DNA of 64,000 nucleotides from Azolla caroliniana (lineage: Eukaryota; Plantae; Polypodiophyta), in contig JBHGNT010000005.1 of the NCBI GenBank assembly GCA_043228905.1, positions 20,522,001-20,586,000 of the forward strand, read 5' to 3'. The first letter of the stretch is position 1, and each line of letters starts with the position of its first letter. This document shows positions 10,222 through 64,000 of the stretch, piece by piece. The translations under genes were made by a program, and so were the position numbers. Under the pieces are notes generated by a model, which was not told the origin of the DNA, searched no databases, and saw only the letters and a list, made by a program, of their open reading frames with translations.

Positions 10222-10400
10222 AGCCGGCTATCTTCCTTCTCGTGTTGTTGCAGGACTCCGAATCGCTCTGATACCACTTTGTAGGCACTCAAGATGTCTT
10301 GGTCAGCTGATGTGTATGAAGTGGGTCGATTAATAAGGAAGCATGTATCAATCTTGTAGCTATGGAGTTATCAAGCAAGAAATGGATGGAGATTTCAAGT

Positions 10401-10646
10401 TGGTAAGAGTCTATTACTAATCAATAGACCAAAATAAAGTAAAAAGAAGGAAATAGATTGGATAGAAGAACTCGTTCCACCCGACCACCCCCGAGCTATG
10501 ATCTAGACATAGCCAACCTACCACCGACATCCTATAACGTTGTATATTAGGATGACTAATACCTTGGTAGAGATAAACACGATCATCGAGATGAAAGCCT
10601 AGCCCGCACCACCGGTGTCTAAGACAACAGCCTTCCGACGTAATGT
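10401..10646 (-). repeat. Left arm of terminal inverted repeat (R-U5 of LTR 10401-~10870)
   Basis: Reverse complement of 15962-16208, about 90% identical by eye. Confidence 0.9.
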
Positions 10647-13600
10647 GCTTATGAGGGTAGCTAAGCCCCATATTTATACCTTTTCCTAGGCCCCTTGAAT
10701 AGATTTTCCTTTCTAAAAGGCTCTCCATTCATTGGTTGTCCAAATCATGATAGTGCATGCACCTATCATTCCTTCTATCCAATCACATTAGTCCCCTTTT
10801 TAACATTAGTGAACATACCCTTCACTTATGTAAATATTAGTGACCTACTCTCACCTACGTTATGTGTACATAATATACTCCCCTACTTCAAAAGATTACA
10901 CTCGTGCAATATAAAGGGAGGAAATTGTGCCTTAAGAGTATGCTCGTGTTCCCATGTGGCATCATCAATAGGTTTATCCATCCATTTGATATTGAATAGC
11001 CGAATCTCTTTAGAACGTAAACATTTAGTACAAGAATCAAGAATTCATTTAGGAACACAAGGTTTGTAGGTAAAATCCTCTAATGTTACAAGATCTTGGA
11101 TTGTGATAGTGTTATCACCAAAGCCTAAAAATTGTTTTAAACGACTGACGTAAAAAACGGGATGAATACCAACATTACGGGGTGAGGAATGGTGATAAGC
11201 ATATGACCCAAGTCGCTTAAGGATTTCAAATGGGCCACAATATCGTGGGGCTAACTTAGCGCACTTGCCCATAGACAATGATGTAGAGTCAGTAGGGACA
11301 CGCAAAAAAAACTTTTTGACCAATAGTAAATGCACCAGGACGTTTATCCTGATCAGCATAAAATCGAGCATGATCTTGAGTTGTCTTGACAATTTCTTTG
11401 GAAATATGTAACATTTGGTTCATGTGTTGCAAAAATTTGTGTGTATTGTCTAATGTATCACGATGAATCGTGGCATGGATTGGGGCATGTGGCTGAAAAC
11501 CTTACATCAACATAAAATGACTATATCCAGTGGATGTATGTTTAGAGCTACTATATACGAATTCTAAGATAGGAAGGTATTGCTCCCACTTAGAATGGGT
11601 TTTTGCTATGTAAGCTCGAAGCATGTTCAGTTTGTCCATTAGATTGAGGATGATCTTCGGAACTCATGCTCAACGTAGTTTCTAGTTTCTTAAAGACCTG
11701 AGTCCAAAAGTCACTAGTAAATTTGGAATCTCGATCACTAACAATATCCATCGGTAATCCATAAAAAAGAAATAACTCATCAACAAATTGATAAGCCAAT
11801 TGTTGAGCGATTACTGTGGTTTTGGTAGGAATAGGGTGACCACATTGATAAAGGACGGCACCAATAGCATAATCACTAGCATCGGTTTCGATTGGGAAAG
11901 GATTGGAAGGGTTCGGTAATAGAAGAGTTGGAGCCTAACACACATGCTCTTTGAGTGTCTCGAATGATTTGTCAAGTTGTTCATTCCATGAAATTGGTTT
12001 GACAGACATACATGGATGACCTTTTAAAAGGCCAATTAATGGCGTAGTCAATTTAGAATAATTACGAATTGATTTTCATAAAAATCCAACAAATCCTAAG
12101 AATGATCGAAGTTCACAAATATTACGAGGAATGAGCCAAAGTTTAACCTTTTCAATACGAGAAGGTTCAATTTCAACGCCATTTTCCATAATTAAATGAC
12201 CTAGGTACACAATATATTTTTGGGAAAAATCACATTTTGAATGTTTTGCATAGAAAGAGTTGTCACATAACTTTTGCAAAACAAATTGAACATGTTGAAC
12301 ATGATCTTGCAAGGTACAGCTATATATGAGAATATCATCCAAGAAGACGACAACAAAATCACCGAGTTGATCTCGGAAAACGTCAGCCATCGCTTGTTGG
12401 AACGTGGCTAGAGCATTGGTCAACCCGAAAGGCATGAATAAAAACTCATAATGGCCATAGCGTGTACGAAAAGCAATTTTAGGAATATCATCCTCGGTCA
12501 TACGAATCTGATGATAACATGTTCGTAAGTCTATTTTCGTAAAATATCGGGCCCCATGCAAACGATCAATCAAATCATCGGCACGAGGTAACGGATATGC
12601 ATTTTTAATTGTCATTTTATTCAAACGATGATAATTGATACACATTCGCCATGAACCTTCCTTCTCTTAACTAATAGAACCGGCGCACCCCAAGGTGATT
12701 TACTATACCTAATGTGGCCCATACTCAAGTATTTCTTAAGTTGTTTGGCGATCTCATCCTCTTCTAATCGACTAAGTCGATAAGGTGGAATGCTCATATG
12801 AGCAACACTAGGAATGAGTTCAATTTGGTGGTCCACATTACGTTTTGGTGGTAAAGTGGCAATTCGTTAGGAAACATGTCTTGAAAATCGTCAAATAGAG
12901 TCAAGTAATTATCATTCATAATTTGGTAATTGTATGGCATCACGATTAAAATAATAAAATTGAAGCGCGGGATCAATTACACACAAATAAATTGATGAAC
13001 TAGAATACTCACTTAAAGATTTAGAAGGCACAAGTGAACCAGAAGGAAGTTTGGAATATTGAATAAAATGTTTACAATTATTAAGTTCAAATGTGATTGA
13101 GTGATTAACCCAATCAATGGACAAAGAAGGATTTTTATTAAAAAACCAAGGGTATCCTAAAATAACATCTGGGGATTGTAGTTTCATAACATGAAAGTCA
13201 AGCTTCTCCAGATAGCTATCTATTTGAATTGGCAGTTGACAAACAATGCCATTGATGTATTGAACGCCTCCATTTGCCATGTGAACTTGATAGATATGAT
13301 CACTTGCGTTTATGTGGAGTTGCATTTGCTGCACCAAGTGATCATTAAGAAAATTGTGAGAACTATCGGAATCAAACAAGAATTGTGCTTGTGTTCCATT
13401 GATATACCCGACTGCTCGGAGTAAATCATTAGATCCAAGTAAATGTGACGGAAAAGTGCATTTACATGAACTTAAGTGGTTGGTATGAAGTTCAATAACA
13501 TCAAAAGAATCACTTGTGTGACTCGTAGATTTGTCTTGAGAAGGGGTGTTCATTGACTTCCTCTCAAGACGACGACAGGTGTGGCCCCGCTTCTTGCAAT

Positions 13601-14699
13601 ATGCACATAAGAGGTTTGGTTTCTTTGAGTCGCAATCAAGAGTGTCACTAGATTGCTTACATTTCCCAATGAACTTGGCATTTAGAGTTTTGGCGAACTC
13701 AGGTTTATTGTGGTCTTTCTTGGAAGTCCTATGGTACCGAAGTACAATGTTGGCGGCTTCCTCGAAAGTTATGGGGTCCTTCTCATGGACAATCCAATGG
13801 TAATCCCCATTGGGAATATCATTCAAAAATCAAGCAACAAACCATTTCTTACCCGTAAGTTCCGAATTTTGGATCTAGATCCGACCATGATGCACATAAT
13901 CCTCAAGAGAGGTAAATGGCTTACTCGACAACGTGAGCAAGTGTTGTGCTTGTTCAGTTTGAGAAGGTGGTTGCAAGAAATGTTTCTTAAAAACATCAAC
14001 AAAATCTTTCCAAGTTGTGGGTAAGTTCTTTACAGTCATCATGTCGTGCCACTGTGCAGCAGCTCGGCCACCTAACTCACGACCAACATAACCAATTTTT
14101 AAAGCATTGGGCTTGGGATGGAGCTCAAAGTGAGACTCCCAACGACCAAGCCAAGTGTTAATGGCCTCCTCGGTTCTTTCTTTCTTATCTCCCTTGAATG
14201 GTGTGACTACGAAAGGACACCTTCTTTCTTGGACTCAATAGTCAATTCTTGGAATTTCTTTTCCAAAGCCATATTGGCTTGCCTCATTTCGGCCAATTGA
14301 ATCAAGGTAGTAGTGAGCAATTACTCAATAGTGATCTTAGATTGTGTTCGAGATGCGGATTGGAGTTGAGTGGTCTCATATGGAGAGATCGCTCCAACTG
14401 TGTTCAAAACTTGTTCCATGATGTAAGTTGTGTGTACGCAATATAAAAACAAGGAGGTTTAGAAAATACACAAGCAAAATGAATGCTTGAAATTTTGATT
14501 AGAAGAACTTTATCCAAGAAAGCATTTCACGTCTTTACCCCTCTAGACATATGAGATGTGATTCAAGATCCGATAACTATGGTAACACTATGGTGTTTTA
14601 AAAACCATGGGGGGAAACATAGCAAAGATGTCTTTCTCCAATCTCTATCTTGAATAACCATGGCGGCTCCCCGAGGCTCAACCTTGGTTCTAGCATCAA

Positions 14700-15599
14700 T
14701 GTAATTTCCTAGTTAGCCTTATATTAAAATGCGAACTCATCATGTATTGATATGGTCGAGAAAGTGTATTACGTGCAAAAACAAGTGCACTCGCAAGTAA
14801 TATTCTAGTCTTGCGAATGGCAAGCAAATGTTATGAAAAAAAGATAAAAATAAGTCACTATCTATAAGAGTCAAGAAGTGACGAAAACAAGGTTCAAAAA
14901 CCATGTGTTGTCTACTAAACAAAAATACCACAAATAAATGGATGGTGCGAGGTATGCACGTATCCATCCCAATATGGTGATTATAATTTGCACAATTGTG
15001 ACATAAGCCACAAGTTGATACAAATGGTGGTAGTGTTGTGCGCAAAGATGTAGTACTCAAATTTATGAGTATTTAAACATCAATAGGGGAACTCATGTGT
15101 TTTTAATCGAGTTCCAAGGCTCCATTACATGAGTTAAACCTAGAGGACACTTTGGAAAAAATATTTAAAAAGCAGCATGATGCCCACTCAATACGAAAAA
15201 AATAGACTACACAAAATCGTTACCCAATTGGGAAAGAGGTTATATCACGTGTGTTCACGACACCTTTTATAAACCCCATATAGGTATGTTTTTTACTATT
15301 TTAGATGCCCTTCTATAATAATACGGTTAATAAAAATACCCCTTAGTGCCAATATATATTTTGACAACAACTCATTTTAAATGCCCTTACATAGAAGACA
15401 CACACGTAAATAATGTAGATGAACATAAAAACTAAGGTTAAAAAACATTGATGTGTGGGTGGGTAGATGAAAATCATAAGAAAATCTTAAGAAAGGGAGA
15501 AGGTAAGTTGTGTAATTAGAAAATAGGTAGAATAGTAATCAATTAGGTGTATGAAACATTAAGCATGTTATAAGGTAAGAAACCCAAGGGCCGTTGACA
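14700..15599 (-). mobile_element. Unrelated LTR-like segment upstream of gag
   Basis: On minus: TGTCAA...TTACA with TATAAAAG at ~15263-15270, followed by a degenerate iMet-like PBS (14686-14698) and preceded by a PPT-like gaggaggtgca. No similarity seen to the 10401-10870 LTR. Confidence 0.5.
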
Positions 15600-15611
15600 T
15601 GCACCTCCTCA

Positions 15612-15850
15612 AGACCACCACATCCCATAGAATCGGCCAAGTGATGCCTCAATAGAGAGTAGAGTGGCATAAGTAAGTGACATATACCTCGTCAAGGCGA
15701 CAACATACCATAGAATCGGCCAAGCAATGGTTGAATAGATAGTAGGTTGGCATAGGTAGGCGACATACACCTTGTCAAGGCCACAACATCCCATAGAATC
15801 GTCCAAGTGATGGCTCAATAAAGGGAAGAGTGACATACGCAACATCATAT
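15612..15850. repeat. ~83-bp tandem repeat, ~3 copies
   Basis: cat(c/a)ccatagaatcg(g/t)ccaag recurs at ~15620, ~15703 and ~15787. Confidence 0.8.
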
Positions 15851-15961
15851 GCAAAAGGGCCATGAGGTGAGCGTGTGCGATTAGGGCAAGCACACTCGAC
15901 CCGATACAAAAGAATAATTATTATCGTAAGAGATGACTCAAGAGAGGGGAGAGTGGGAGAT

Positions 15962-16208
15962 ACATTACATCGAAAGTATGTTGTCTTAGACACCGGTGGT
16001 GCGATCTAGGGTTTCTTCTCGATGATTGTGTTTATCTCTTCCAAGGTATTAGTCATCCTAATATCCAACGGTATGGGATGTCAGTGGTAGGTTGGTTATG
16101 TCTAGATCATAGGTCGGGGGTGGTCGGGTGGAACGGGTTCTCCTATCCAATCTATTTTCCTTCTTTTTACTTTATTTTTGTCTATTGATTAGTAATAGAC
16201 TCTTAACA
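15962..16208 (+). repeat. Right arm of terminal inverted repeat
   Basis: acattac...gactcttaaca is the reverse complement of 10401-10646. Confidence 0.9.
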
Positions 16209-16584
16209 CAAGCAATGTTCCTGTCAAGAGAGTATACACACACACACACACACACATAGAGAGAGAGAGAGAGTTGCACAATTTACGGCTCAAGAAGACA
16301 ATTGCATTATTAATCCCACGAACTTCTTTACAATAATATAGTTCCTCATATTTAGAGTTAGGGACGTGTTCACACTATGAGTACAATAGGTGGAGTGAGA
16401 CTTTTAGCCCAACGCACGCTTCACATATTATACTGCACATATTGCACCTAACAACAAAACTATATTTTTCGAGGAATGGGGAGACCGTACATATCAATAC
16501 ATTTTAGAGCCCATCCTATTGTTTGTCATTCGAACCATTGCTTCCATGCGACTTAACTCACATGCATTGCGATGTGAGACGAGG

Positions 16585-16930
16585 CGTTTGGGCACAAATG
16601 ATGAGAGTGGTCAATTGTGAACACTTTTACCTTAACAAGTTTGAGCGTCTAAGTATCACACTTTGATACAAAGCTAAACCTTTTATCATATTTGACCCTG
16701 CTTTCCACACATCTTAAACCAAGCCCAATCCTTGGACGAATTTCTCTCACAAACACAATGTGCACTCTCGATTGCAAATTCATTAGACAATTCTTGAACA
16801 TGGAGAGTCGCTATTCACCTTCACATGTATTATGTTAAATATAATATTTTTGGTCTCATTGGTCATATTTGACCTCTGATGACGATAACGGAATTTATAT
16901 ATCTCTCTCTCCCATGGGCTAGGTTCCATC
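16585..16930 (+). repeat. Dispersed repeat, inverted partner of 33285-33632
   Basis: agtatcacactttgatacaa, cacaatgtgcactctcgattgcaa and ggtcatatttgacctc all occur reverse-complemented, in order, at 33360-33575. Confidence 0.8.
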
Positions 16931-17391: not shown

Positions 17392-18554
17392 CATAGAACA
17401 TAATATTCGTGTTCGTGGAGGCATCCAAACGTTTGAATATGTTTGAAACGGGAAAAATGCTTGTTCCTTTTATTTTCCCCTTTTTTGTATTTATTTTTTT
17501 AAGTGACGTTGTTTCTCTGTCTCACTCCCTCTCCCCCCCTTCTCTCTCTCTCTCTCTCTCTCTCTACAACTTTGTTGTAGGCCTTGCCCCAACATCTTCA
17601 TTGCATCAGCTATAGCATACAACTTGCCCAAATATTCCAAAATTGTATGTAAAACTGACTTGCTTTTGTCTTCATCAGTAAGTCCTCAATTCTATGTAGC
17701 TTTGGCTCTACAATTTTTGTGGATTTTAGGTTATCAAATGGGTAGACAAAAGGGTGAAGAATGGAACCATGTCCCGATTCTTAAGAAGCATCCCAAAGGT
17801 ATGCATGTGATGCAATGCAGATATTGCAGCCATACTTATGTTGGTGGTCCACAACGGATTAGAGTCCACTTATTGGGATTGAGAGGACAAGGCGTGGAGA
17901 AATGTAAACATGCAAGTAATGATGTAAAACAGCAAATCAAGAGATTAATGGGGATTGCAAGTGAGGAAGTTGTTTCAAATGTCGATGTACCTATTCGAAA
18001 TGAAAATCAAAGTATTGCTTCTACATTGATTTCTAAAAAGGAAATGCATAATGTATCTCAACCTCAAGCATGTATAATGTATCTCAAAATGAAATTACAA
18101 TGGAAATGGTAAATAAAGAGGAAGATGTTGAAAGGTTATTGAACTTGTAAAAAGAGCGAGAAATTTTACATACTGAAAATTCAAATGATATCCTCAATAG
18201 TATGCAAGATGAGGATATTGAAGACAGTTATGTTGTTGGTAGTAATGAGGCACATTCTAGTGAGAATCCTCAAACAAATTACTACCTCAATTGAACTAAT
18301 AAATTTTTTTGTTAATGTCATATTTTCTTCATATTCTCCAATATAAGCTTTATGAGTTTTTGAATGTTTGATGATAGTTTATAATGACATAGTCCACTTG
18401 TTGGGATTGAGAGTGAATCAATATATAATATAGACCATATTCAATCCAATCAAACGTGTCAATCCAATCCAACTTTGAGATTATTTACCATACACGAATG
18501 ATTGAATCATTCACGAATGCGAATGCACGTATAATACGTATGGTTCATTCTATG
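17392..18554 (+). mobile_element. Non-autonomous hAT DNA transposon with BED zinc-finger remnant
   Basis: TIRs CATAGAA.../...TTCTATG; 8-bp TSD CATATAGC (17384-17391, 18555-18562). ORF 17738-18112: W..V...CRYCSHTYVGGPQRIRVHLLG...C. Confidence 0.85.
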
Positions 18555-33284: not shown

Positions 33285-33632
33285 AAATGGAGTTAGGGTT
33301 AGCTTGGGTGTACATAGACACACATGAGAGGAGATAGATAGATAGATAGATTATATTATCGTCTTCTGAGGTCAAATATGACCTATGAGACCAACAATAT
33401 TACATTTCACGTGATACATGTGAAAGTGAGTAGCAACCAATGAATGTTGCAATCGAGAGTGCACATTGTGGTTGTGAGAGAAATTTGTGTAAGGATTGGG
33501 CTAAGTCGAAGAGATGTGGAAATCATGGTCGAATATGATGAAAGGCAGAGCATTGTATCAAAGTGTGATACTCAGACTCACGAACGTGTTTAGGGCAAAG
33601 TGTGCATAGCCGGCCACTCTCATCACTTGTGA
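33285..33632 (-). repeat. Dispersed repeat, inverted partner of 16585-16930
   Basis: See the partner feature. Confidence 0.8.
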
Positions 33633-50479: not shown

Positions 50480-53400
50480 CTAGTTGTCGAAATTCCGAAG
50501 CATAGACAAAAGTTGCACGCAAACCTTGTTCGAGTGCATAAAGCTTGGTGAGTGTTGTATATCACTGGTCCGCCTCTCCAAATGTGGCCTCTAACTCGGC
50601 GAGGAAGGCAGGAAAGTCCTCTAATAGAGGTGACGAAGTTTCCACTAAATGTGCAAACCAAGCTTGGGCCAGACCGGAGAGGAAGGTGCCCACAAGTCCA
50701 ACTTGTCGAAGACCATCAGCATAACGTTGAGGTTGTAGCCAAATGATTAGGCGAATTTGGTTGATGAACCCCCGGAAACGTGACCTCATTCCATCAAATC
50801 TTAGGCTCAAGAAAATGAGAAGAAGTTAGATTAGATGTTGGTAGAAGATTGGGCTTTGGGCTAGGTTGTGGTGGGATATTAGGCTCTATGGGTTGTGAGG
50901 ATAGGGAGGCACCGACTTGAAGTTCTCGTAATGAATTCCAAAGGGCTTCATTTTCAAGCTGGAGTTGTTGTAAGTCTATCGTTATCTGGCTTAAGTCACA
51001 AGCTGTGTCGGACATGGCTACGGCTAATGAGGAGAAGAGCTACGAGGATGGGAAGGTGAACAAACTGTCATGAGTGGAAGATATACACAAGAGAGTAGAA
51101 GATAATCAAAGAGATGAGTTGATTAATTGAAAGACTCCGTAACTGGTGTTGTTCACCTTGATTGTAATCTAGGTGAACACACATATTTATACAAGTTCTG
51201 AGATTGGATATCTCTAGAATATACCTAAGAAATATCTCTAAAATATACTCATCTAGAATATACCATAGAGCATTTCTAGAATATACTAGAAACACTAGAA
51301 TATTCTATATGCTAGACTATACAATATTAACCATATACTTTACATGTAACTTAAGGGTTTCCAAATGGTTTATCTAATTATACTAAGTATTGGGTGTGTT
51401 ATAGGTTAGAGGTTTGAGTCTATGACACCAGTCCTCCTTCACGTTGTCGCGGAGAAAACCGGCCTTAGGAGGAATCATGGAATTCGGCGCGTGAAACGGC
51501 ACTTATGCATGTGCACTCAAACCAACACACTGTACATAACTAGGAATAGGCCGGCGGGATGTGTATATCCTAGGGAGAATATATTAATAGGCTAGTAAAT
51601 CGAAGCGGATCTTTGTCCGGAGGGACAGAGAATAAAGATGATGTGACCCGGATGGAACCGAGCTCCCTCCTCCTCAATCGTTGTTTTCTACGGGTTTTTT
51701 GAGTTGGTTGCTTCTGCTTCGAGGAAAGCCCGTGTGCTTTCCGGCAAAGGCTCTAATGCGTGCGTGCGTGGGTGTGTGATTGTCTGGGTTGGGTCTCTCG
51801 CCGGCTATTCGACTGTAATCCTGCGAACACTGTAAACTTTACTGTTATTGGAATCGAATCTCCTATTTCCCTCTCTGTGTTTCTATGAGCCTCTCTTTTA
51901 CGCGAGTGTGCATCTTGTTTAGATACGCATTAGTGGTTCATTCAGTCGGCAAGCGTTGTCAGTTGCTAACGGCCCTAGCTGGCCCTACGCTTGCGCTCTT
52001 CTCCCGCTCCGCCTTCTTCTCTCTCTTGCTCCTTGGTTCAGGGCCCCCGCAGTCCCATCTTATTTCTATTAGGATTTCAGTCCCTCTGGATGGGATGATG
52101 AAGGCCCGGTGTGAACCGGATGTTGCACGCCCGGTGAGAACCTCTCACCGGATGAAGGGACACATGAAAATATGTTCCAGAGAGCCCATTGTGGCTATAT
52201 TTGTAAATAGCCCGAAAGTCATATTAGTATAAACGTGACATAGGGCAAACACTTGAGTGTGGTTAGTTGTTGTATAGAGTTATTTGGTGGAACTACTGGA
52301 TAGAGCGTAGCACACACAGAGAGAGAACGATACAGAGAGTGTGTCTTTGTTGTAATCGCCGCCAGGCGAAGGTTGAGAGCAAGAGGTCGTTGCCTTTGTG
52401 CTCCTTGTTGTATTTTCCTTGACATAGTGATAGTCTGGAGTCTGTGGGCTCCCGTGGTTTTTCGCTCACAGGGTTTTCCACGTTAACATATTGTGTACTC
52501 TCTCTCATATTGGCTGTGTATATGTGCATTTACCTTCATTGCCCATTTCTTCTGTGGTTGTGATTCTAACGAAGTGATTGAAGTATCGGTGGTGGCCGAG
52601 CATTATTCTGTATATTATTGTCAATCTGGTATCAGAGCGAAACGACACAGAAAGTGGAAGATTCGTTTGGAGGCATGTTCAAGCTCACCGGCTCCAACTA
52701 CTTAGTGTGGAAGTCGAAGATGAGGGACATGTTCATGGTTAAAGATCTCTGGTTGCCGGTTTAGTTCAGGGACAAGAGACCGAACAAGATTGACGCCACG
52801 GTGTGGGAGGTGATGCACATGAAGACAACAACTTACATCCGGTGCTTCATCGACATGAGCCTGTACAACAACTTCAATGAAGAGAGCAAGACTCATGAGC
52901 TCTGGGAGAAAATCGGCATAATGTTTCAATGAACAGAGCAAGGCTCATGAGCTCTAAGAGAAGATCGGCATTATGTTTTAGAACAAAAATGTTGTTAATC
53001 GGGTTTCGGTATTTCGGAAGCTAGTAAAGCTCCAGTACCAAGACGACTCTAGTATGGCGGAGCACATGAATGCCTTCCAGGGGCTGATTAACCAGGCAAC
53101 ATCGTTGGAAGTACCTCTTGCCGATGAGGTACTAGCACTGCTCCAGCTCGGTTCCCTCTCGGATAGCTGGGAGATGTTAGTTGTCACTTTGGGCAACGTC
53201 GAGACGGAAGGGAAACAGTTATCCCTGGCAAGAGTCAAGTCGAGCTTGCTAGATGAGGAGGCGCGTCGAAAAGACAAGGATACGAGCTCCGACTCCAAAG
53301 CGCTCCTTACCGAATGGGAACGCGGAAGACAAAGGAACCGGAGTCCCCAGAACTGGGAAAATGTCGGGAACTCAACACTCCTTTTGCAGAACGCTCGGCC

Positions 53401-53845
53401 ACAACCGAGCTTAGAATCATACACAGAAAACAGGAAACGAAAAAAAAACACGACACAAAGGAGAGAAAAGGTGCACAGGATGTTTACGTGGAAAACCCAA
53501 ACTAAGGGAAAAACCACGGCAGCCCACAGGCTACAAGCTATCACTATGTTGGAATGTACAAACAGTGAGTTCACGGAGGCAACGACCTCGTGCTCACGAT
53601 CTTCACCACAGGCGGCGGTTACAACAGAGGCAATGAGCTCTTTCTCTCTCTCTCTCTCTGTACACTGTTACGTGCTCTCTCTTCTTCTTCTTGCACCACC
53701 AAGAAAAAATGACAACAACCGTTACTAAAAGTTTGCCCTAAGTCATATTTATACTAATATGACTTTTCGGTTATTTACAAATATAGCCTCGATGGCCTCT
53801 CAGAAACATATTTACGAATATGTCTCTTCGTCCGGTGAGCATTCC

Positions 53846-54114
53846 TCACCGGGTCAGCACCATCCGGCTCTCCGTAGCCGGGTACTTCTCATCCGGTTCT
53901 CACCGGGTCTGCACCATCCGGCTCTTCGTAGCTAGGTACTCCTCATCCGGATCTCACCGGGTCAGCACCATCCGGCTCTCCGTAGCCGGGTACTCCTCAT
54001 CCGGATCTCACCGGGTCAGCACCATCCGGCTCTCCGTAGCCGGGTACTCCTCATCCGGATCTCACCGGGTCTGCACCATCCGGCTCTCCGTAGCCGGGTA
54101 CTTCTCATCCGGTT
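53846..54114. repeat. 54-bp tandem repeat x5 in U3 of Copia B 3' LTR
   Basis: ctcaccgggtcagcaccatccggctctccgtagccgggtactcctcatccggat. Confidence 0.92.
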
Positions 54115-57100
54115 TGTTTATCGGCACTGTTGTTCTCTCTTCCCATTCGGAGGGACCTGTCTCCCAACAAACTCCCCCTTCACTCCGGCATGGGGTGTCT
54201 TCCCAGTCCGATCCGCTTCCGGCATACACCCAACTTGTCGGGTATCAGAACTTTGGTCAGCATATCAGACCCGTTCTCGGCCGTGTGGATCTTCGACAGT
54301 GCGAACTCCTGGTCATCTACTCTTTCCCGGATCCAGTGATACCTTCACTGGATATGGTTCGTCCGGGAATGGTAGCCCACATTCCTCGCAAGGTGGATGG
54401 CACTTTGATTGTCGCAATAGAGTCGGTATTCATCTTGTTGCATACCGAGCTCTCCGATGAAGTCCTTCATCCATAATATTTCCTTGCCGGCTTCCAAAGC
54501 CGCCATGTACTCCGCCTCCGTGGTTGACAATGCAACTGTCTTCTGCAGCCTCGACTGCCACGAAACAGCTCCCCCTGCATATGTCATTACATACCCGGAT
54601 GTAGACCGGCTAGTATCCACATCAACCGACATGTCCGAATCGGTAAAACCGTCAAGTTGAGGTTTTCCGGAGCCGAATCGGAGACACATATTTGAAGTGC
54701 CCTTCAAATACCAGAGTATCCATTTGACCGCGTTCCAGTGCTCCTTGCCGGGATTGCTCATGAACCGGCTCACCACTCCGACTGCGTATCCTATATCCGG
54801 TCGGGTACACACCATTGCGTACATCAAGCTCCCGACGACAGAGGCATATGGAATCTTCATCATATCCGCCTTCTCTGCTTTCGTCTTCGGGCTTTGCTTA
54901 CCGGATAGCCTGCAGTTTGCCGGAAGTGTCGATCCGACCGGTTTCGCTTCTGACATGTTGAACCGGTGAAGCACCTTTGTCACATACTTCTCCTATGACG
55001 GCCATAATTGCTTCTTTAACCGGTCCCGAATGATGTGCATCCCTAGCATCTGTCTTGTCGGACCCAAGTCTTTCCTTTAGAAGGTCCGGTTGAGAGCTTC
55101 TTCAGCATCCGTATTTTGACTTGGTCACGTTCGACGATCAACATGTCATCCACGTACAGAAGGAGTATCAGGAAGTCGCCTCCTTCGAAGTTCTTCACCA
55201 ACACACAGTGATCGGCCTGCGTCTTGTGGTACCCTTGATCGATCATGAAGGAATCGAACTTCCGGTACCATTGTCGGGGAGCCTGCTTTAGTCCGTACAA
55301 GCTCTTCTTCAGCCGGCATACCAGGTGCTCCTTCTCTTTCTCCACAAATCCCTCCGGTTGCTGCATGTAGATCTCTTCTTCGAGGTCGCCGTGAAGGAAT
55401 GCCATCTTCACGTCGAGCTGCTCTACCTCAAGGTCCATGCTTGCCGCTATACTCAGCACCGTCCGGATGGAGGTCATCTTTACAACCGTGGCAAATATCT
55501 CGTCGAAGTCCACGCCCTTCTTCTGCTGGAACCCCTTCACCACGATCCTGGCTTTGTATCTCGGGGGGTTGTCGGCATCTCCCGGTTTCAACTTGTACAC
55601 CCACTTGTTTCGGAGTGCCCGTTTTCCTTTCGGCAACTCCACTAATTCGTACGTATGGTTCTCATGCAGGGAATCCATCTCATCCTGCATGGCACTTAAC
55701 CATTTGCGGCTATGGGTGTCATCCTTCGCTTCTTCGAAGCTTTCCGGCTCCCCCTCATCGGTCAGCAGCACATGCTCTCCATCCGGAAATCTCCGGGGGG
55801 GCCTTCTCTCTCTGAGAGGATATCTCCGTCTTTGGGCTTCGGTAGCCGGCTCCTCCATTTGCTCTTCATCCAAATCTGATTCGGGGTCTAGGCTGGTTCC
55901 GGTTTTAACTTCCTCTACTTCTTCTTCAGCCTGTTCGGTATCCTCACCGTAACCGGCTGGTCCCTCGAGTGCTAACCGGTCTCTTGCCGGTTGGGTCTGC
56001 TCATCGTAGGGTCGATCCTTACCGGTTGACTCGGAGTTCATTATCTTCTTCTCCGACTCCCAGTTGGCGAGCGTCTTGTCCTCCATGAAGATAATATCTC
56101 GACTCCGGAATACCTTCTTGTTGACCAGGTCCCACACTCGGTAACCGAACTCATCATCACCGTAACCGAGGAATATGCATGGCCGGGTCTTTGGATCTAA
56201 CTTTCCTCTCCGTTCCTTAGCTACATGCACGTACGCGAGACACCCGAATACCTTCAGATGCCGGTAGGACACTTCCTTACCGGTCCAGACTCTCTGTGGC
56301 GTGTCTCCGTCCAAGGGTACTAAGGGTGATCTATTTATCATGTATGTCGCTGTCGACAGTGCCTCAGCCCAAAACTTCTTGGGTAGTTTTGCATGCGCTA
56401 GCATACTCCGGACCCTCTCCATTATGGTCCGGTTCATCCTCTCGGCCAATCCGTTTAGTTCCGGCGTCTTCGGCACGGTAAATTCGAGCCGGATTCCCTT
56501 CGAGCGGCAGTACTCCTCGAACTGCCCCCGGTATTCCCTCCGTTATTTGCTCGAACCGCCTTCAGCTTCCGGCCGGTTTCTCTTTCCACTCTCGCGTGGA
56601 TCTCTTTGAAGACGGATAGCACTTGATCCTTCGTCTTCAACGGTGTGGCCCACAACTTCCGGCTGTGGTCATCTATGAACGTCACGAAGTACTGCGCTCC
56701 GGCATGTGACTTCGTGTCTAATTGACACACATCCGTATGCACCAACTCCAGTGGTGCATTACGTCTCATCGGTGGCCTTGGTCGGAAGGAGGTCCGGTTT
56801 TGTTTACCGGCCAAACAATCAGTGCACTTCTCCAAGTGCACGTTCTTCACTGGAATGAGGTTGTCGTCTGCGAGCCTCTTCATCCCCTTCTTGCTCATAT
56901 GACACAGTCTCTTGTGCCACAGCTCACCGGCAGTGTCGGATGCCACGTTCACCTCTTCCGGACATAACCGAGCATTCATCAGGTACAGTGTGTTGACCTT
57001 CCGGGCCCGAGCCACAATCAAGCTCCCTTTTTTGAACTTCATGACACCGTTCCGGATGCTACCCGTGTAGCCTTCATCATCTAGCCGACCGGCTGATATC

Positions 57101-58525
57101 AGGTTCAGACGAACCTCCGGAACGTGTTGAACATCCTTCAGCAACAACTTGCATCCGGTTGGTGTTGACAGCCACACGTCTCCTATGCCGATAATTCGGC
57201 ATGTACCTTCATTCCCCATCTGGACACAGCCGTGATCACCGGCTGAGTAGGATGAGAAGCATTTTCGGTCCGGGGTAAGGTGGAACGATGCTCCGGAGTC
57301 TACCACCCAGGTCATCTCGTCGCCGGCAAGGTTTATCTCACTCTCCTCGGTGATGAGCATCAACTCTTCTTCACTTGCCACGATTGTCGTCGTTCCCTTC
57401 CGGTCCGTTCCCCTCCGGTCTTTACCGTTCCGGTCCGGGGTCCGCTTCGAATCGGTACCGTCGGTTTCCTTGTCTTTACGGAAATGCCGACAGTTCTTTT
57501 GGAAGTGTCCCGGCTTGCCGCAATAGAAGCAAGTGGGCCTCCCCCTTGACTTTGACCGTGTCCCTGACTTCTCCCGGTTCTGGGGACTACGGTTTCTATG
57601 TCTTCCGCGTTCCAATTCGGTAAGGAGCGCTTTGGAGTCGGAGCTCGTATCTTTATCTTTCCGACGCGCCTCCTCATCTAGCAAGCTTGACTTTACTCTT
57701 GCTAGGGATAACCGCTTTCCTTCCGGCCGGGCGTTGCCCAAAGTGACAACCAATGTCTCCCAACTATCTGGGAGGGAACCGAGCAGGAGTAGCGCTAGTA
57801 CCTCATCGGCGAGAGGTACTTCCAATGAAGTTGCCTGGTGGATCAGCCCCTAGAAGGCATTCATGTGCTCCGCCATGCTGGAGCCATCTTGGTACCGGAG
57901 TCTTACTAGCTTCCGGAATACCGAAACCTGATTAACAGCATTTTTGTTTTGAAACATTATGCCGATTTTCTCCCAGAGCTCATGAGTCTTGCTCTCTTCA
58001 TTGAAGTTGTTGTACAGGCTCATGTCGATGAAGCACCGTATGTACGCCGTTGTCTTCATGTGCATCACCTCCCATATCGCGGCGTCGATTTTGTCCGGTC
58101 TCTTGTCCCCGAACTGAACCGGCAGCCAGAGGTCTTTAACCACGAGCATGTCCCTCATCTTCGACTTCCACATTGAATAGTTGGAGCCGGTGAGCTTGAA
58201 CATGCTGCCAAACGATTCATCCATTTCTGTGTCGTTTTGCTCTGATACCACTTGTCGGGAACTCAACGCTCCTTTTGCAGAACGCTCGGCCACAACGGAG
58301 CTTAGAATCATACACAGAGAACAGGAAACGAAAAAAAAACATGACACAAAGGAGAGAAAAGGTGCACAGGATGTTTACGTGGAAAACCCAAACTAAAGGA
58401 AAAACCACGGCAACCCACAGGCTGCAAACTATCACTATGTTGGAATGTACAAACAATGAGTTCACGGAGGCAACGACCTCGTGCTCACGATTTTCGCCAC
58501 AAGCGGCGGTTACAACAGAGGCAAC

Positions 58526-58563
<38 letters not shown>

Positions 58564-58745
58564 CACTATTACGTGCTCTCTCTTCTTCTTCTTGCACCAC
58601 CAAGAAAAAATGACAACAACCGTTACTATAAGTTTGCCCTAAGTCATATTTATACTAATATGACTTTTCGGTTATTTACAAATATAGCCTCGATGGCCTC
58701 TCAGAAACATATTTACGAATATGTCTCTTCGTCCGGTGAGCATTC

Positions 58746-59177
58746 CTCACCAGGTCAGCACCATCCGGCTCTCCGTAGCCGGGTACTTCTCATCCGGTTC
58801 TCACCAGGTCAGCATCATCCGGCTCTCCGTAGCCGGGTACTTCTCATCCGGTTCTCACCGGGTCAGCACCATCCGACTCTCCGTAGCCGGGTACTCCTCA
58901 TCCGGATCTCACCGGGTCAGCACCATCCGGCTCTCCGTAGCCGGGTACTCCTCATCCGGATCTCACCGGGTCAGCACCATCCGACTCTCCGTAGCCGGGT
59001 ACTCCTCATCCGGATCTCACCGGGTCTGCACCATCCGGCTCTCCGTAGCCGGGTACTCCTCATCCGAATCTCACCGGGTCTGCACCATTCAGCTCTCCGT
59101 AGCCGGGTACTCCTCATCCGGATCTCACCGGGTCTGCACCATCCGGCTCTCCGTAGCCAGGTACTTCTCATCTGGTT
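58746..59177. repeat. 54-bp tandem repeat x8 in U3 of Copia B 5' LTR
   Basis: Same unit, 8 copies. Confidence 0.92.
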
Positions 59178-62100
59178 TGTTTATCGGCACTGTTCTTCTC
59201 TCTTCCCATCTGGAGGGACCTGTCTCCCAACAGAAAAGTTGGGGACACGGTCAAAGTCAAGGGGAAGGCCCACTTGCTTCTATTGTGGGAAGCCGGGGCA
59301 CTTCTAGAAGAACTGTCGGCATTTCCGGAAAGAGAAGGAAACCTACAGTATTGATTCAAAGCGGTCACCGGACCGGAAGGGTAAAGACCGGAGGGGACCG
59401 AACCGGAAGGGAACGACGGCAATTGCGGCAAGTGAAGAAGAGTTGATGCTCGTCACCGAGGAGAGTGAGTTGAACCTTGTCGGCGATGAGACAACATCGG
59501 TTGTCAAATCCGGAGCGTTGTTCCACCTGACCCCGGACCGGAAATGCTTCTCATCCTACACAACCGGTGAGCACGACTGTGTCCGGATGGGGAATGAAGG
59601 TACATGCCGAATTGTCGGCATAGGAGACATGTGGCTAACAACACCAACCAGATGCAAGTTGTTGCCGAAGGATGTTCAACACATTCCAGAGGTTCAACTG
59701 AACCTGATATCAACCGATCGGCTAGATGATGAAGGCTACACGGGTAGCATCCGGAACGGTGTCATGAAATTCAGCAAAGGGAGCCTGATAGTGGCTCGGG
59801 CCCGGAAAGTCAACACGATGTACCTGATGAATGCCCGGTTATGCCCGGTTATGCTCGGAAGAAGTGAACGTGGCATCCGACACTGTCGGTGAGTTGTGGC
59901 ATAAAAGATTGTGTCACATGAGTGAGAAGGGAATGAGGAGGCTTGCCGATGACAACCTCATTCCGGTGAAGGACATGCATGTTGAGAGGTGCATTGACTG
60001 CCTGGCCGGTAAACAAAACCGGACATCCTTTCGATCAAGACCACCGATGAGACGGAATGCACCACTGGAGCTTATGCATACCGATGTGTGTCAAGTGGAC
60101 ACGAAGTCACATGACGGATCGCAGTACTTCGTGACGTTCATAGACGACCACAACCGGAAGCTATGGGCACACCGCTGGAGACAAAGGATCAAGTGTTATC
60201 CATCTTCAAGGAGCTCCACGCGAGAGTGGAAAGAGAAACCGGCCGGAAGCTGAAGACGGTTGGAGCAGATAACAGAGGAGAATATCGGGGGCAGTTCAAG
60301 GAGTATTGCCGCTCTAAGGGAATCCGGCTCGAATTTACCGTGCCGAAGACGCCGGAACTAAATGGGATGGCCGAGACAATGAACCGGACTATAATGGAGA
60401 GGGTCCCGAGAATGTTGGCACATGCCAAGTTACCCAAGACGTTTTGGGTTGAGGCGCTGATGACAGCGACGTACGTGATAAACATATCACCCTCAGTACC
60501 CTTGGACGGAGACATGTCGCAGACGGTGTGGACCGGTAAGGAAGTGTCTTACCGACATCTGAAGGTGTTCGGGTGTCTCGCTTATGTGCATGTGGCAAAG
60601 GACCGGTGAGCAAAGTTGGATCCAAAGTCCTGACCTTGCATATTCCTTGGATACGGCGATGATGAGTTCGGCTACCGAGTCGAGATATTAGCTTCATGGA
60701 GGACAAGACCCTTCCCGATTGGGAGTTGGAGAAGAAGATAATGAACTCTGAGTCAACTGGTAAGGATCGAACCGATAAGATTCGAACCTACCCGGCTAAG
60801 AGCCGGTTGACACTCGAAGAACCGGCTGGTTATGGTGAGGATACCAAACCGGCAGAAGAAGGAGAGGAAGCTGAAACCGGAACCGGACAAGACCCCGAAT
60901 CGGATTTAGATGAAGAATAGACACAAGAGCTAGTTACCGAAAACCGAGGACGAAGATATCCTCTCCGGGAAAGAAGTGCCCCTCGGAGATTTCCGGATGC
61001 AGAACGCGTGTTGTTGACCGATGAGGGGGAGCCGAAAAGCTTTGAAGAAACGAAGGATGACACCCATAGCCGCAAGTGGTTGAGTGCCATGTAGGACGAG
61101 ATGGATTCCCTGCATGAGAACCACACATATGAATTGGTGGAGTTGCCGAAAGGAAAACGGGCACTCTAGAATAAGTGGGTGTACAAGCTGAAACCGGGAG
61201 ATGCTAGAAACCCCCCAAGATACAAAGCCAGGATCGTGGTGAAGGGGTTCCAGCAGAAGAAGGGCGTGGACTTTGACGAGATATTTGCCCCAGTAGTAAA
61301 GATGACCTCCATCCGAACGGTGTTGAGCATAGCGGCAAACACAGACCTCGAGGTAGAGCAGTTAGACGTGAAGACGGTGTTCCTCCACGGCGACCTCAAA
61401 GAGGAGATCTACATGCAGCAACCGGAGGGATTTGTGAAGAAAGGGAAGGAGCACCTGGTCTGTCGGTTGAAGAAGAGCCTCTACGGTTTGAAGCAGGCTC
61501 CCCAGCAATGGTACCGGAAGTTCGACTCCTTCATGACAGATCAAGGATACCACAAGACACAGGCTGACCACTACATGTTTGTGAAGAAGTTTGAAGGTGG
61601 AGACTTCCTGATACTCCTCCTGTACGTGGATGACATGTTGATCGTCGGACGAGACCAAGTCAAGATACGAACGCTGAAGAAGGCTCTGAACTGGACCTTC
61701 TCAATGAAAGACTTGGGTCCGACAAGACAGATACTGGGGATGCACATCATCTGGGACCGGTCAAAGAAGCAATTGTGGCTGTCATAGGAGAAGTACATGA
61801 CAAAGGTGCTTCAGCGGTTCAACATGTCAGATGCAAAACTGGTCGTATCGACACTCCCGGCAAACTGCAGGTTATCCGGTAAGCAAAGCCCGAAGACGAA
61901 GGCAGAGAAGGCGGATATGATGAAGATACCATATGCCTCTGGGGTCGGGAGCTTAATGTACGCAATGGTGTGTACCCGACCGGATATCGGATACACACGC
62001 GGAGTGGTGGGCCGGTTTATGAGCAATCCCGGCAAGGAGCACTGGAATGCAGTAAAATGGATACTCCGATACTTGAAAGGCACCTCAAGTATGTGTCTCC

Positions 62101-64000
62101 GATTCGGCTCCGGTAAACCCCAACTTGACGGTTTCACCGATTCGGATATGTCGGTTGATGTGGATACTAACCGGTTAACATCGGGATATGTTATGACATA
62201 TGCAGGGGGAGTTGTTTCGTGGCAGTCTAGGCTGCAAAAGACAGTTGCGTTGTCAACCACAGAGGCGGAGTACATGGCGGCTGTGGAAGCCGGCAAGGAA
62301 ATACTATGGATGAAGGACTTCATCGGAGAGCTAGGGATCTGGCAAGAGGAATACCGGCTCTATTGCAACAGTCAAAGTGCCATCCACCTTGCGAAGAACA
62401 CAACGTATCATTCCAGGACGAAGCACATCCAACGTAGGTACCACTGGATCCGAGAGTGAGTTGAAGATCAAGAGTTCGTGTTGATGAAGATCCACACGGA
62501 GGAGAACGGGTCAGATATGTTGACCAAAGTGTTGACACCTGACAAGTTGGACGCATGCCGGAAGCGAATTGGACTAACCAGTCATCCCATGCCGGAGTGA
62601 AGGGGGAGTTTGTTAGGATTTCGAGCCCTCCGTATGGGATGATGAAGGCCCGGCGTGAACCGGATGATGAAGGCCCGATGTGAACCGGATGTTGCACGCC
62701 CGGTGAGAACCTCTCACCGGATGAAGGGACACATATGAAAATATGTTCCAGAGAGCCCATTGTGGCTATATTTGTAAATAGCCCGAAAGTCATATTAGTA
62801 TAAATATGACATAGGGCAAACACTTGAGTGTGGTTAGTTGTTGTATAGAGTTATTTGGTGGAACTACTGTATAGAGCGTAACACAGAGAGAGAGAGAACG
62901 ATACAGAGAGTGTGTCTCTGTTGTAACCGCCGCCAGGCGAAGGTTGAGAGCAAGAGGTCGTTTCCTTTGTGCTCCTTGTTGTATTTTCCTTGACATAGTG
63001 ATAGTTTGGAGTCTGTGGGCTCCCGTGGTTTTTCTCTCTTAGGGTTTTCCACGTTAACATACTGTGTACTCTCTCTCATATTGGCCGTGTATATGTGCAT
63101 TTACCTTCGTTGCCCATTTCTTTTGTGGTTGTGATTCTAACGAAGTGATTGAAGTCTCGGTTGTGGCCGAGCATTATTCTGTATATTATTGTCAATTTCC
63201 TACGCGAAAGCGGAACAACACGACATAATTTGGTGAACCCGATGTGAAACAAGGAGGCAGAGGAGTAGAAGATGAGGGGATCAGAGCTCGTTGAAGCCAT
63301 GGCGGCAACAGTCGATCACATAGTAAGTGCTCGCGAGGGCACATGCGCCCTCGATAGGGCCATTGAAGCAATTGTCAGCACAATAGGCCGGTTCGGTGGG
63401 AAGGACTCCACGAGCTATTTGGAGGCCTACCGAGTCGAGATGGTCATGAGGGACATTCCGGAGGATAGGCGTTTGGCCGGGTTCCCTCGGGTGGCGACAC
63501 CGAGCATCGACACAGAGGTGCTCGAGGTATAGGCTGGATGCCGGACCTGGGGAGAATTCGAAGCACGGCTCCTCAAAAGGTACGGGCTTGATGACGCGCT
63601 TCGGTTATTGAAGCGGGACTTCATGGAGTGGGTGGAAACCCCTGGAAAGGGGAGGAACGCGTCGGCGCTCTTCCGGGAGTTCGAAGAATGCTTTGCACGG
63701 CTCTCGGCACTAGACAAGACCGTGCTAGACACAAGCCGTGTTCTGTTGTTCGTCAAAGTGGTGGACATGCGGGATCGGGATCAAGTGGGTCTCCTGGTTG
63801 AGACAGATGATGGGCCGACGACCGATTGGGCCACGGTCAAAAGAGTCTGCAACTATTTTGACAAGCGGCGTGAGTGGGGCGATTTGGGATTGTTGGCGGT
63901 GAGACCCGTCTTGGCAAGGAAGTTCGACGAGCCTTCGCTGGCACGAAAGGAGGAAACCCGGGATTGGCTTGAGACGGGCTCGACCTCGACCGGCGTGGTC

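What the first reader, a model, noticed from the sequence alone, without database searches (positions are those of the whole stretch)
10396..16213. Gypsy/chromovirus unit bounded by inverted R-U5 repeats instead of direct LTRs
Seen: a gag-PR-RT-(RH)-DDE integrase-chromodomain unit whose two ends (10401-10646 and 15962-16208) are reverse complements. They start TG and end CA, and are flanked by CAAGT/CAAGC inside a host LTR that appears to continue across the insertion. The shared sequence begins 32 nt after the TATA box of the left LTR (10678), the same spacing as the predicted start sites in the Tcn1-like LTRs here, so the repeat equals R-U5 without U3. About 20 differences separate the arms by eye, roughly half of them transversions, whereas decay of methylated repeats is usually transition-rich. 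The sequence next to the PBS (14700-15599) is a different LTR-like segment. Known: Ty3/Gypsy elements have direct LTRs; inverted termini typify DIRS (tyrosine recombinase) and Ginger (no RT). Inference: either a retroelement family with a distinct inverted-terminus replication scheme (and fold-back RNA potential), or a one-off integration of a chimeric cDNA using two U5 ends.
Basis: partly seen in the sequence, partly recalled or inferred. Interest (0 to 1): 0.85.

Follow-up and report, generated by a model that had tools for sequence, protein, structure and literature searches.

The report
Retrotransposon copy with two U5 ends
This is a dead copy of an ordinary plant jumping gene whose left end is replaced by a back-to-front copy of its right end, and a second, separately formed copy of that shape lies on another contig; both are likely copying errors made during reverse transcription and still inserted in one step, not a new family.

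Summary
The inverted ends are real: 246/247-bp arms, 20 substitutions, and a 5-bp duplication supported by empty host sites. There is no inverted-terminus family. The parent chromovirus family has direct ~474-bp LTRs, a tRNA-type PBS and a PPT. The stretch 14700-15961 is its ordinary 5' leader, not a second LTR, and the 'PBS' at 14700 is not one. This copy lost its 5' U3, PBS and 312 bp of leader. An inverted R-U5 is joined on through a 4-nt microhomology. The arm starts at the family's micro-indel hot spot, which likely marks the RNA 5' end, so the arm has the length of minus strong-stop DNA. A screen of 345 U5 ends found one more, independent, young case (C14; perfect AAGAT duplication, 293-bp arm, different junction). 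Best explanation (0.7): a short nascent minus strand primed on a second minus strand, and integrase inserted the product by two U5 ends. Transversion excess is weak. Reads did not confirm the internal junction. The scan noted similar inverted-end Gypsy copies in other genomes (unchecked). This is a recurrent by-product, not a replication scheme.

The parts
10265..10276 (-). PBS of the host element (TGGTATCAGAGC); shows that the insertion sits in the host's 5' LTR
10280..10400 (-). host LTR, part left of the insertion
   Evidence: 9 homologous loci
10396..10400 (.). target site duplication, left copy CAAGT
   Evidence: empty sites
10401..10875 (-). complete 3' LTR, 475 bp (U3 10875-10647; R-U5 10646-10401 = left arm); TG start decayed to TA
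   Evidence: aligns end to end with direct LTRs of the family
10671..10678 (-). TATA box TATAAATA of the 3' LTR
   Evidence: sequence; conserved in the family
10642..10649 (-). predicted U3/R boundary: the family's most variable 8-nt window, coinciding with the arm start
   Evidence: inferred RNA 5' end; no RNA data
10876..10889 (-). polypurine tract GAAGTAGGGGAGTA
10886..14458 (-). decayed gag-PR-RT-RH-IN-SH3-chromodomain frame: six pieces, 11 stops, deletion of about 820 bp at 11833/11834
14459..15961 (-). ordinary 5' leader of the family with three 83-bp repeats (15596-15842); not an LTR, no PBS
15962..15965 (.). strand-switch junction; ACAT/ATGT microhomology shared by leader and R start
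15962..16208 (+). inverted R-U5 arm, 247 bp, ending TTAACA; replaces 312 bp of leader with PBS and the direct 5' LTR
16209..16213 (.). target site duplication, right copy CAAGC
   Evidence: one contig of run X1 matches 16182-16240 with 0 differences (27 letters on the U5 side, under the tool's 31-letter rule)
16214..16413 (-). host LTR continuing right of the insertion (far end not mapped)

Best explanation
This is a dead copy of an ordinary direct-LTR chromovirus family whose 5' end is replaced by an inverted R-U5, likely because a short, tRNA-primed minus strand primed on a second minus strand during reverse transcription, giving a cDNA with two U5 ends that integrase likely inserted in one step. 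SHOWN: parent structure, lost segments, junction microhomology, target duplication, a second independent case, and a variability hot spot at the arm start. INFERRED, step by step: (1) minus strong-stop DNA (u5'-r', 247 nt, 3' end AATGT) missed the normal jump to the 3' R; (2) its 3' end paired through 4 nt with ACAT in the leader part of a longer nascent minus strand; (3) each strand was extended on the other, so the short strand became the coding-sense strand; (4) after tRNA removal both ends were U5; (5) integrase made the usual 5-bp staggered insertion; (6) both arms then decayed. At C14 the short strand was 293 nt (it had jumped and copied 47 nt of U3) and primed inside the protease gene through 2 nt. 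Without PBS or 5' promoter neither copy can be copied again by the normal route.
For: Parent family has direct LTRs: 10 of 38 loci with both, 9 of 10 with a readable perfect 5-bp TSD. Junction unique. Of 36 R starts not preceded by the window's own GC, only this arm lacks U3. TSD supported by empty sites. Second case L117, C14:3005309-3009465, was found by orientation alone and then showed a perfect AAGAT/AAGAT TSD (chance about 0.001), arms differing at 1 of 293 nt, and a junction in PR with AG microhomology. The other 5 of 7 outward pairs have no shared TSD and are separate insertions. The arm starts at the most variable 8-nt window of the LTR (entropy 9.35 vs median 1.55, 60 copies). Among 27 scored young LTRs there are 15 variants at this site, identical in both LTRs of 8 of 8 elements, with 77 minority cells in 11 nt vs 67 in 441 nt. 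Errors at the -1 position from cap read-through at minus-strand transfer are described for HIV-1 and MLV (PMC11998490, passages). A random LTR breakpoint would hit this window about 2.5% of the time. Both arms share five minority alleles, a haplotype in 0 of 56 other copies, so they come from one lineage. Arm divergence (K 0.086) fits twice the copy's private divergence (3.7%) and the range of old LTR pairs (0.056-0.079). L125 shows another strand fold-back inside a young TSD-flanked unit of the family.
Against: Only two cases. The C14 arm does not start at the RNA 5' end, so strong-stop length is not required. Microhomologies of 2-4 nt also fit host end-joining and replication template switches. 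The LTR's own termini are 5-bp inverted repeats (TGTTA/TAACA), which could guide a later in-place inversion. How the tRNA-derived tail at the new end was removed is unexplained. The RNA start is inferred from polymorphism, not measured. The right arm carries 14 of the 20 substitutions, 8 of them in its first 55 nt, which this model does not predict. The internal junction is not confirmed by reads.
Confidence: 0.7

Rival explanations
1. Two-molecule integration: integrase paired the U5 ends of two cDNAs, and host repair trimmed and joined the inner ends by microhomology.
For: Gives the same precise ends, TSD and 2-4 nt microhomology. Concerted integration of separate donor ends in vitro is recalled; one search gave only listings.
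Against: Both arms are shorter than one LTR (247 and 293 bp of a 7.1-kb element), and one starts at the inferred RNA 5' end. Resection gives no reason for either.
Confidence: 0.13
2. Rearrangement after insertion: a normal copy inserted, then a replication or repair template switch inverted part of the 5' LTR (ACAT out, TAACA back) and deleted U3, PBS and 312 bp of leader.
For: LTR termini TGTTA/TAACA give a 5-nt return microhomology exactly at the TSD. A small inversion at PBS/leader exists in L092. Arm age cannot tell this apart from the best explanation.
Against: It needs exact hits at the U5 end, the U3 end and, here, the RNA start. The C14 copy is very young (1 of 293 differences) yet shows the same exact ends after loss of 3.2 kb.
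Confidence: 0.12
3. Misassembly of the window locus.
For: No laid contig bridged the internal junction (not counted as evidence, see Tried and rejected). The second read test could not be run.
Against: The arms carry different private substitutions yet share a five-site haplotype absent from 56 other copies. The host LTR continues across one 5-mer. A second locus has the same architecture.
Confidence: 0.03
4. A replicating family with inverted R-U5 termini (DIRS-like scheme).
For: Two loci with inverted ends and TSDs.
Against: The two have different junctions, arm lengths and ages. Each lacks PBS and 5' promoter. The window junction is unique. There is no internal complementary region or second PBS. 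The family has direct LTRs.
Confidence: 0.01

Closest known systems
Plant chromoviruses, Ty3/gypsy (Neumann et al. 2019, PMC6317226; passages read)
   Same: Parent family has gag-PR-RT-RH-IN-chromodomain in one 1479-codon frame, direct TG...CA LTRs, PBS TGGTATCAGAGC, PPT and 5-bp TSD.
   Different: This copy has inverted ends, no PBS and no 5' U3. The tRNA-type PBS and a chromodomain that by eye lacks the first and last cage aromatics argue against Tcn1; the clade was not tested by phylogeny.
Template-switch complex LTR insertions (Sabot and Schulman 2007, PMC1950507; first half of the text read)
   Same: Abnormal template switch in reverse transcription, one integration, flanking TSD used as the proof.
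   Different: Theirs are longer three-LTR elements with LTRs in the usual orientation. Here the switch goes to the opposite-sense strand and yields two U5 ends.
Defective HIV-1 proviruses with asymmetric LTRs or inversions (PMC9278108; passages)
   Same: Reverse-transcription misalignment products that integrase still inserts; inversions in 2 categories of 1.3% each.
   Different: The passages seen describe deleted direct LTRs and internal inversions, not a U5 at both ends.
DIRS-1 (PMC5633606; passages)
   Same: Inverted terminal repeats around gag and RT.
   Different: DIRS-1 uses a tyrosine recombinase and an internal complementary region; neither is here.
Ginger DNA transposons (PMC2836005; abstract and passages)
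   Same: Gypsy-type integrase, TGTNR ends, TIRs of 40-270 bp (Ginger1) or up to 297 bp (TDD-5).
   Different: Ginger are multi-copy cut-and-paste DNA transposons with mostly 4-bp TSDs. These units keep RT and RH, are single copies and show no sign of having moved.

Membership tests
Chromovirus (Ty3/gypsy) parent family | domain order gag-PR-RT-RH-IN plus C-terminal chromodomain | tested here: met
   Pfam on an uninterrupted family frame incl. PF00385; window copy maps to it at 77-88%
Chromovirus (Ty3/gypsy) parent family | direct LTRs, PBS, PPT, 5-bp TSD | tested here: met
   10 of 38 loci with both LTRs; 9 of 10 readable perfect TSDs
Intact LTR retrotransposon (this copy) | two direct LTRs and a PBS | tested here: not met
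   inverted R-U5; no PBS within 2 mismatches inside 10401-16208
Tcn1 clade | no tRNA PBS (self-priming) and aromatic-cage chromodomain in most members | tested here: not met
   PBS TGGTATCAGAGC (its match to tRNA-Met is recalled); chromodomain by eye lacks first and last cage residue; criteria from PMC6317226
Chromovirus clade (Galadriel/Reina/Tekay/CRM/Tcn1) | placement in RT-RH-INT phylogeny against REXdb | not tested
   no reference set fetched
DIRS | tyrosine recombinase instead of integrase | tested here: not met
   rve, Integrase_H2C2 and SH3 hits; no recombinase hit
DIRS | internal complementary region | tested here: not met
   R-U5 matches only the two arms inside the unit
Ginger | DNA transposon without RT/RNase H | tested here: not met
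   RVT_1 E 2e-32 in the window copy
Ginger | several copies sharing the same TIR-bounded structure | tested here: not met
   window junction unique among 40 scored of 1225 candidates; the C14 junction was not searched
Template-switch cDNA integrated in one step | one TSD around the whole unit | tested here: met
Template-switch cDNA integrated in one step | junction present before integration (in unintegrated cDNA) | not testable with these tools
   needs sequencing of extrachromosomal or particle DNA

The most novel reading that the evidence does not exclude
Mutual priming of two nascent minus strands is a regular minor output of chromovirus reverse transcription, of the order of 1% of insertions. 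In one step it turns an LTR retrotransposon into an integrase-coding unit with terminal inverted repeats and a TSD, i.e. raw material for Ginger-like DNA transposons. When read through from a flanking promoter, as the host 5' LTR could do here, it would also be a source of fold-back RNA against its own family.
Probability: 0.2. Interest if true: 0.7.

Novelty: new variant of a known kind. Interest (0 to 1): 0.37.

Why it matters
LTR finders look for direct repeats, so insertions like these are likely missed or mis-annotated. Two independent cases in one family, one with an arm of exactly the inferred strong-stop length, give a genomic record of a reverse-transcription error and suggest that a plant integrase accepts two U5 ends in vivo. 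The micro-indel hot spot offers a way to infer an LTR's RNA start from copies alone. The link to Ginger-like elements or to silencing RNA is speculation. As a single locus it is a dead fossil.

Tried and rejected
New family: rejected. Second LTR and PBS at 14700: rejected. Transversion excess as a sign of unusual synthesis: not significant against the copy's own background. Five other outward-facing U5 pairs (C2, C11, C16, two on C18): separate insertions without a shared TSD. Search for units with two U3 ends: only the first 100 of 344 places were listed; one facing pair (L125) turned out to have normal ends with an internal fold-back. G at -1 as a pure cap signature: the tree was too unresolved to count origins (12 changes for 14 rows, 104 of 500 shuffles as low, bootstrap unsettled), so only the hot spot itself is used. 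Hairpin at the junction: not special (z -0.58). Sequencing runs: no RNA holder listed. Contigs of 4 runs gave no cover at 15976-16003 and none bridged the internal junction; the tool warns that a hole proves nothing. A second read test was not obtained. Literature: ten searches answered and none listed a paper on Gypsy insertions with two U5 ends. The library lacks most subscription papers and older retrovirology (PMC1169686 and PMC2738136 not held), so this is weak evidence of absence. No supplements were read; those of PMC6317226 could bear on the clade.
Full report
1. Observation. The arms 10401-10646 and 15962-16208 are reverse complements over 246 aligned nt, with 20 substitutions (9 transitions, 11 transversions) and one indel. 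They are flanked by CAAGT and CAAGC. The window is G000:C5:20522001-20586000 in a 523-Mb assembly; I did not identify the organism, which is plant-like by its elements. The left flank found 9 homologous host loci. Aligned separately, the two flanks run on across a single 5-mer, e.g. L072 GAGATATGAAGT|AATGTTCC against the window's GAGATTTCAAGT|insert|CAAGC AATGTTCC. So the 5-mer is duplicated and no host sequence is lost. The host PBS at 10276-10265 places the insertion in the host's 5' LTR.

2. The family. The arm gave 1315 candidates, of which 40 were scored. I fetched up to 10 kb inward for 38 of the 39 non-self hits. Ten hold a complete second LTR in direct orientation, two hold a partial direct one, and none holds an inverted one; many others are 5' or solo LTRs whose partner was outside the stretch. 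Normal copies have LTRs of about 474 bp (TGTTA...TAACA), PBS TGGTATCAGAGC one base after the LTR, a PPT, and perfect 5-bp TSDs in 9 of 10. An uninterrupted family frame of 1479 codons carries capsid, protease, RT, RNase H, zinc finger, integrase core, SH3 and chromodomain. It is a chromovirus. The tRNA-type PBS and the chromodomain, read by eye, speak against Tcn1 by the criteria in PMC6317226 (passages); no phylogeny against references was run.

3. Anatomy of the window copy. It is colinear with normal copies from 10401 to 15965. The 3' LTR is 10401-10875 and the PPT 10876-10889. The coding region lies in six frame pieces with 11 stops and lacks aa 905-1156. The stretch 14700-15961 is the normal leader, and the motif at 14700 is not a PBS. 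Where normal copies go on with 312 bp of leader, the PBS and a direct 5' LTR, this copy has the inverted arm, joined through ACAT/ATGT, present in both leader and R start. The missing U3 and PBS are not elsewhere in the unit. Only the window spans the junction among 40 scored of 1225 candidates. Two patterns for R starts not preceded by the window's GC gave 17 and 19 matches, and only the window's arm lacks U3. These patterns cover only the older subfamily.

4. Is the arm R-U5? No RNA data were available. Among 60 LTRs not chosen for this site, the most variable 8-nt window is LTR position 228-235 (numbered from 10876), and the arm starts at 231. In the young clade, otherwise under about 1% diverged, 27 scored LTRs show 15 variants there (2 of 29 rows could not be scored). 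The variant is the same in both LTRs of 8 of 8 elements. This is what errors at first-strand transfer would leave; cap read-through at the -1 position is described for HIV-1 and MLV (PMC11998490, passages). So the RNA start is inferred at the arm start, and the arm has the length of minus strong-stop DNA (steps as in PMC5371799, passages). A uniform breakpoint would land there about 2.5% of the time.

5. Recurrence. A 19-mer near the U5 end has 726 exact matches. I listed ends not followed by the PBS-type GT: 345 of 388 places. They form 24 neighbour pairs within 40 kb: 15 direct, 2 inward and 7 outward. Five outward pairs have no shared TSD. One is the window. The other is C14:3005309-3009465 (L117): 99% identical to young copies, TSD AAGAT/AAGAT, arms differing at 1 of 293 nt, the arm reaching 47 nt into U3, and the junction in the protease gene with 2 nt of microhomology. 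The TSD was not a search condition there. The two units differ in age, arm and junction, so they arose separately. Two is a lower bound, since both ends had to match exactly. L125 is a third aberrant product: normal ends, TSD TAGCC, internal fold-back of U3.

6. Divergence. Arm distance is K 0.086, against 0.056-0.079 for four old LTR pairs and under 0.01 for six young ones. Most differences are private to one arm, more on the right. Both arms share five minority alleles, a combination in 0 of 56 other copies. Transversions make up 34% of private changes along the copy, like other old copies (p=0.66). The arms' 55% is not significant against that (p=0.087), though it is against old R-U5 pairs (p=0.0096, post hoc). 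The cluster of right-arm changes near the junction is unexplained.

7. Mechanism. On the coding strand both units read: minus-sense DNA from the tRNA-proximal end (247 or 293 nt), a 2-4 nt microhomology, then coding-sense sequence to the normal U5 end. The simplest source is a short nascent minus strand priming on a second, longer minus strand, giving two U5 ends for integrase (0.7). Two-molecule integration with host end-joining (0.13) and a later inversion guided by the LTR's TGTTA/TAACA termini (0.12) are not excluded. Misassembly (0.03) and a replicating family (0.01) are unlikely. One contig of run X1 matches the right end and flank without differences, but the internal junction was not bridged.

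8. Comparison and novelty. It works like the template-switch insertions of Sabot and Schulman (PMC1950507, first half read) and defective proviruses (PMC9278108, passages), but with a strand switch. It fails the tests for DIRS (PMC5633606, passages) and Ginger (PMC2836005, abstract and passages). Ten paper searches listed no description of two-U5 Gypsy insertions; the library is incomplete. Unchecked notes of this scan report inverted-end Gypsy copies in other genomes and one hybrid in this genome; they are leads, not support. Verdict: a real, recurrent by-product of an ordinary family; new variant of a known kind; interest 0.37.

Noticed in passing
L117 (G000:C14:3005309-3009465): Second, young two-U5 unit with a perfect AAGAT TSD; it keeps the pol region at 99% identity to young copies. 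Its junction was not searched for further copies.
   Followed up: partly
family LTR positions 228-235 (window about 10642-10649): Micro-indel hot spot, concordant within elements and variable between near-identical sisters; a likely footprint of first-strand-transfer errors that marks the RNA start.
   Followed up: partly
L125 (G000:C4:14527511-14528733): Young 1.2-kb unit, TSD TAGCC/TAGCC, normal U3 and U5 ends, with an internal inverted duplication of the first 75-95 nt of U3 and loss of nearly all internal sequence.
   Followed up: partly
L092:1725-1847: Small inverted pieces of PBS-proximal leader next to a truncated U5.
   Followed up: no
L080 and L124: Neighbouring family copies in opposite orientation with U5 ends facing inward; in L080 one follows directly on a partial copy of the other.
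   Followed up: partly
L058:4173-5253: Three tandem repeats of a joined protease/leader segment (about 424 bp) inside a direct-LTR copy.
   Followed up: no
window 52093-63196: An element with a related element nested in opposite orientation (LTRs 53362-54112 and 58253-59013, 54-bp tandem repeats); this explains a 3.4-kb inverted repeat at 86% identity.
   Followed up: partly
window 17507-18112 (+): 201-codon frame with a Cys/His pattern recalling a BED zinc finger of hAT elements (recalled); no Pfam hit at E 0.01.
   Followed up: no
window 16593-16911 and 33333-33631: 319-bp inverted match at 78% identity; an unassigned dispersed repeat.
   Followed up: no
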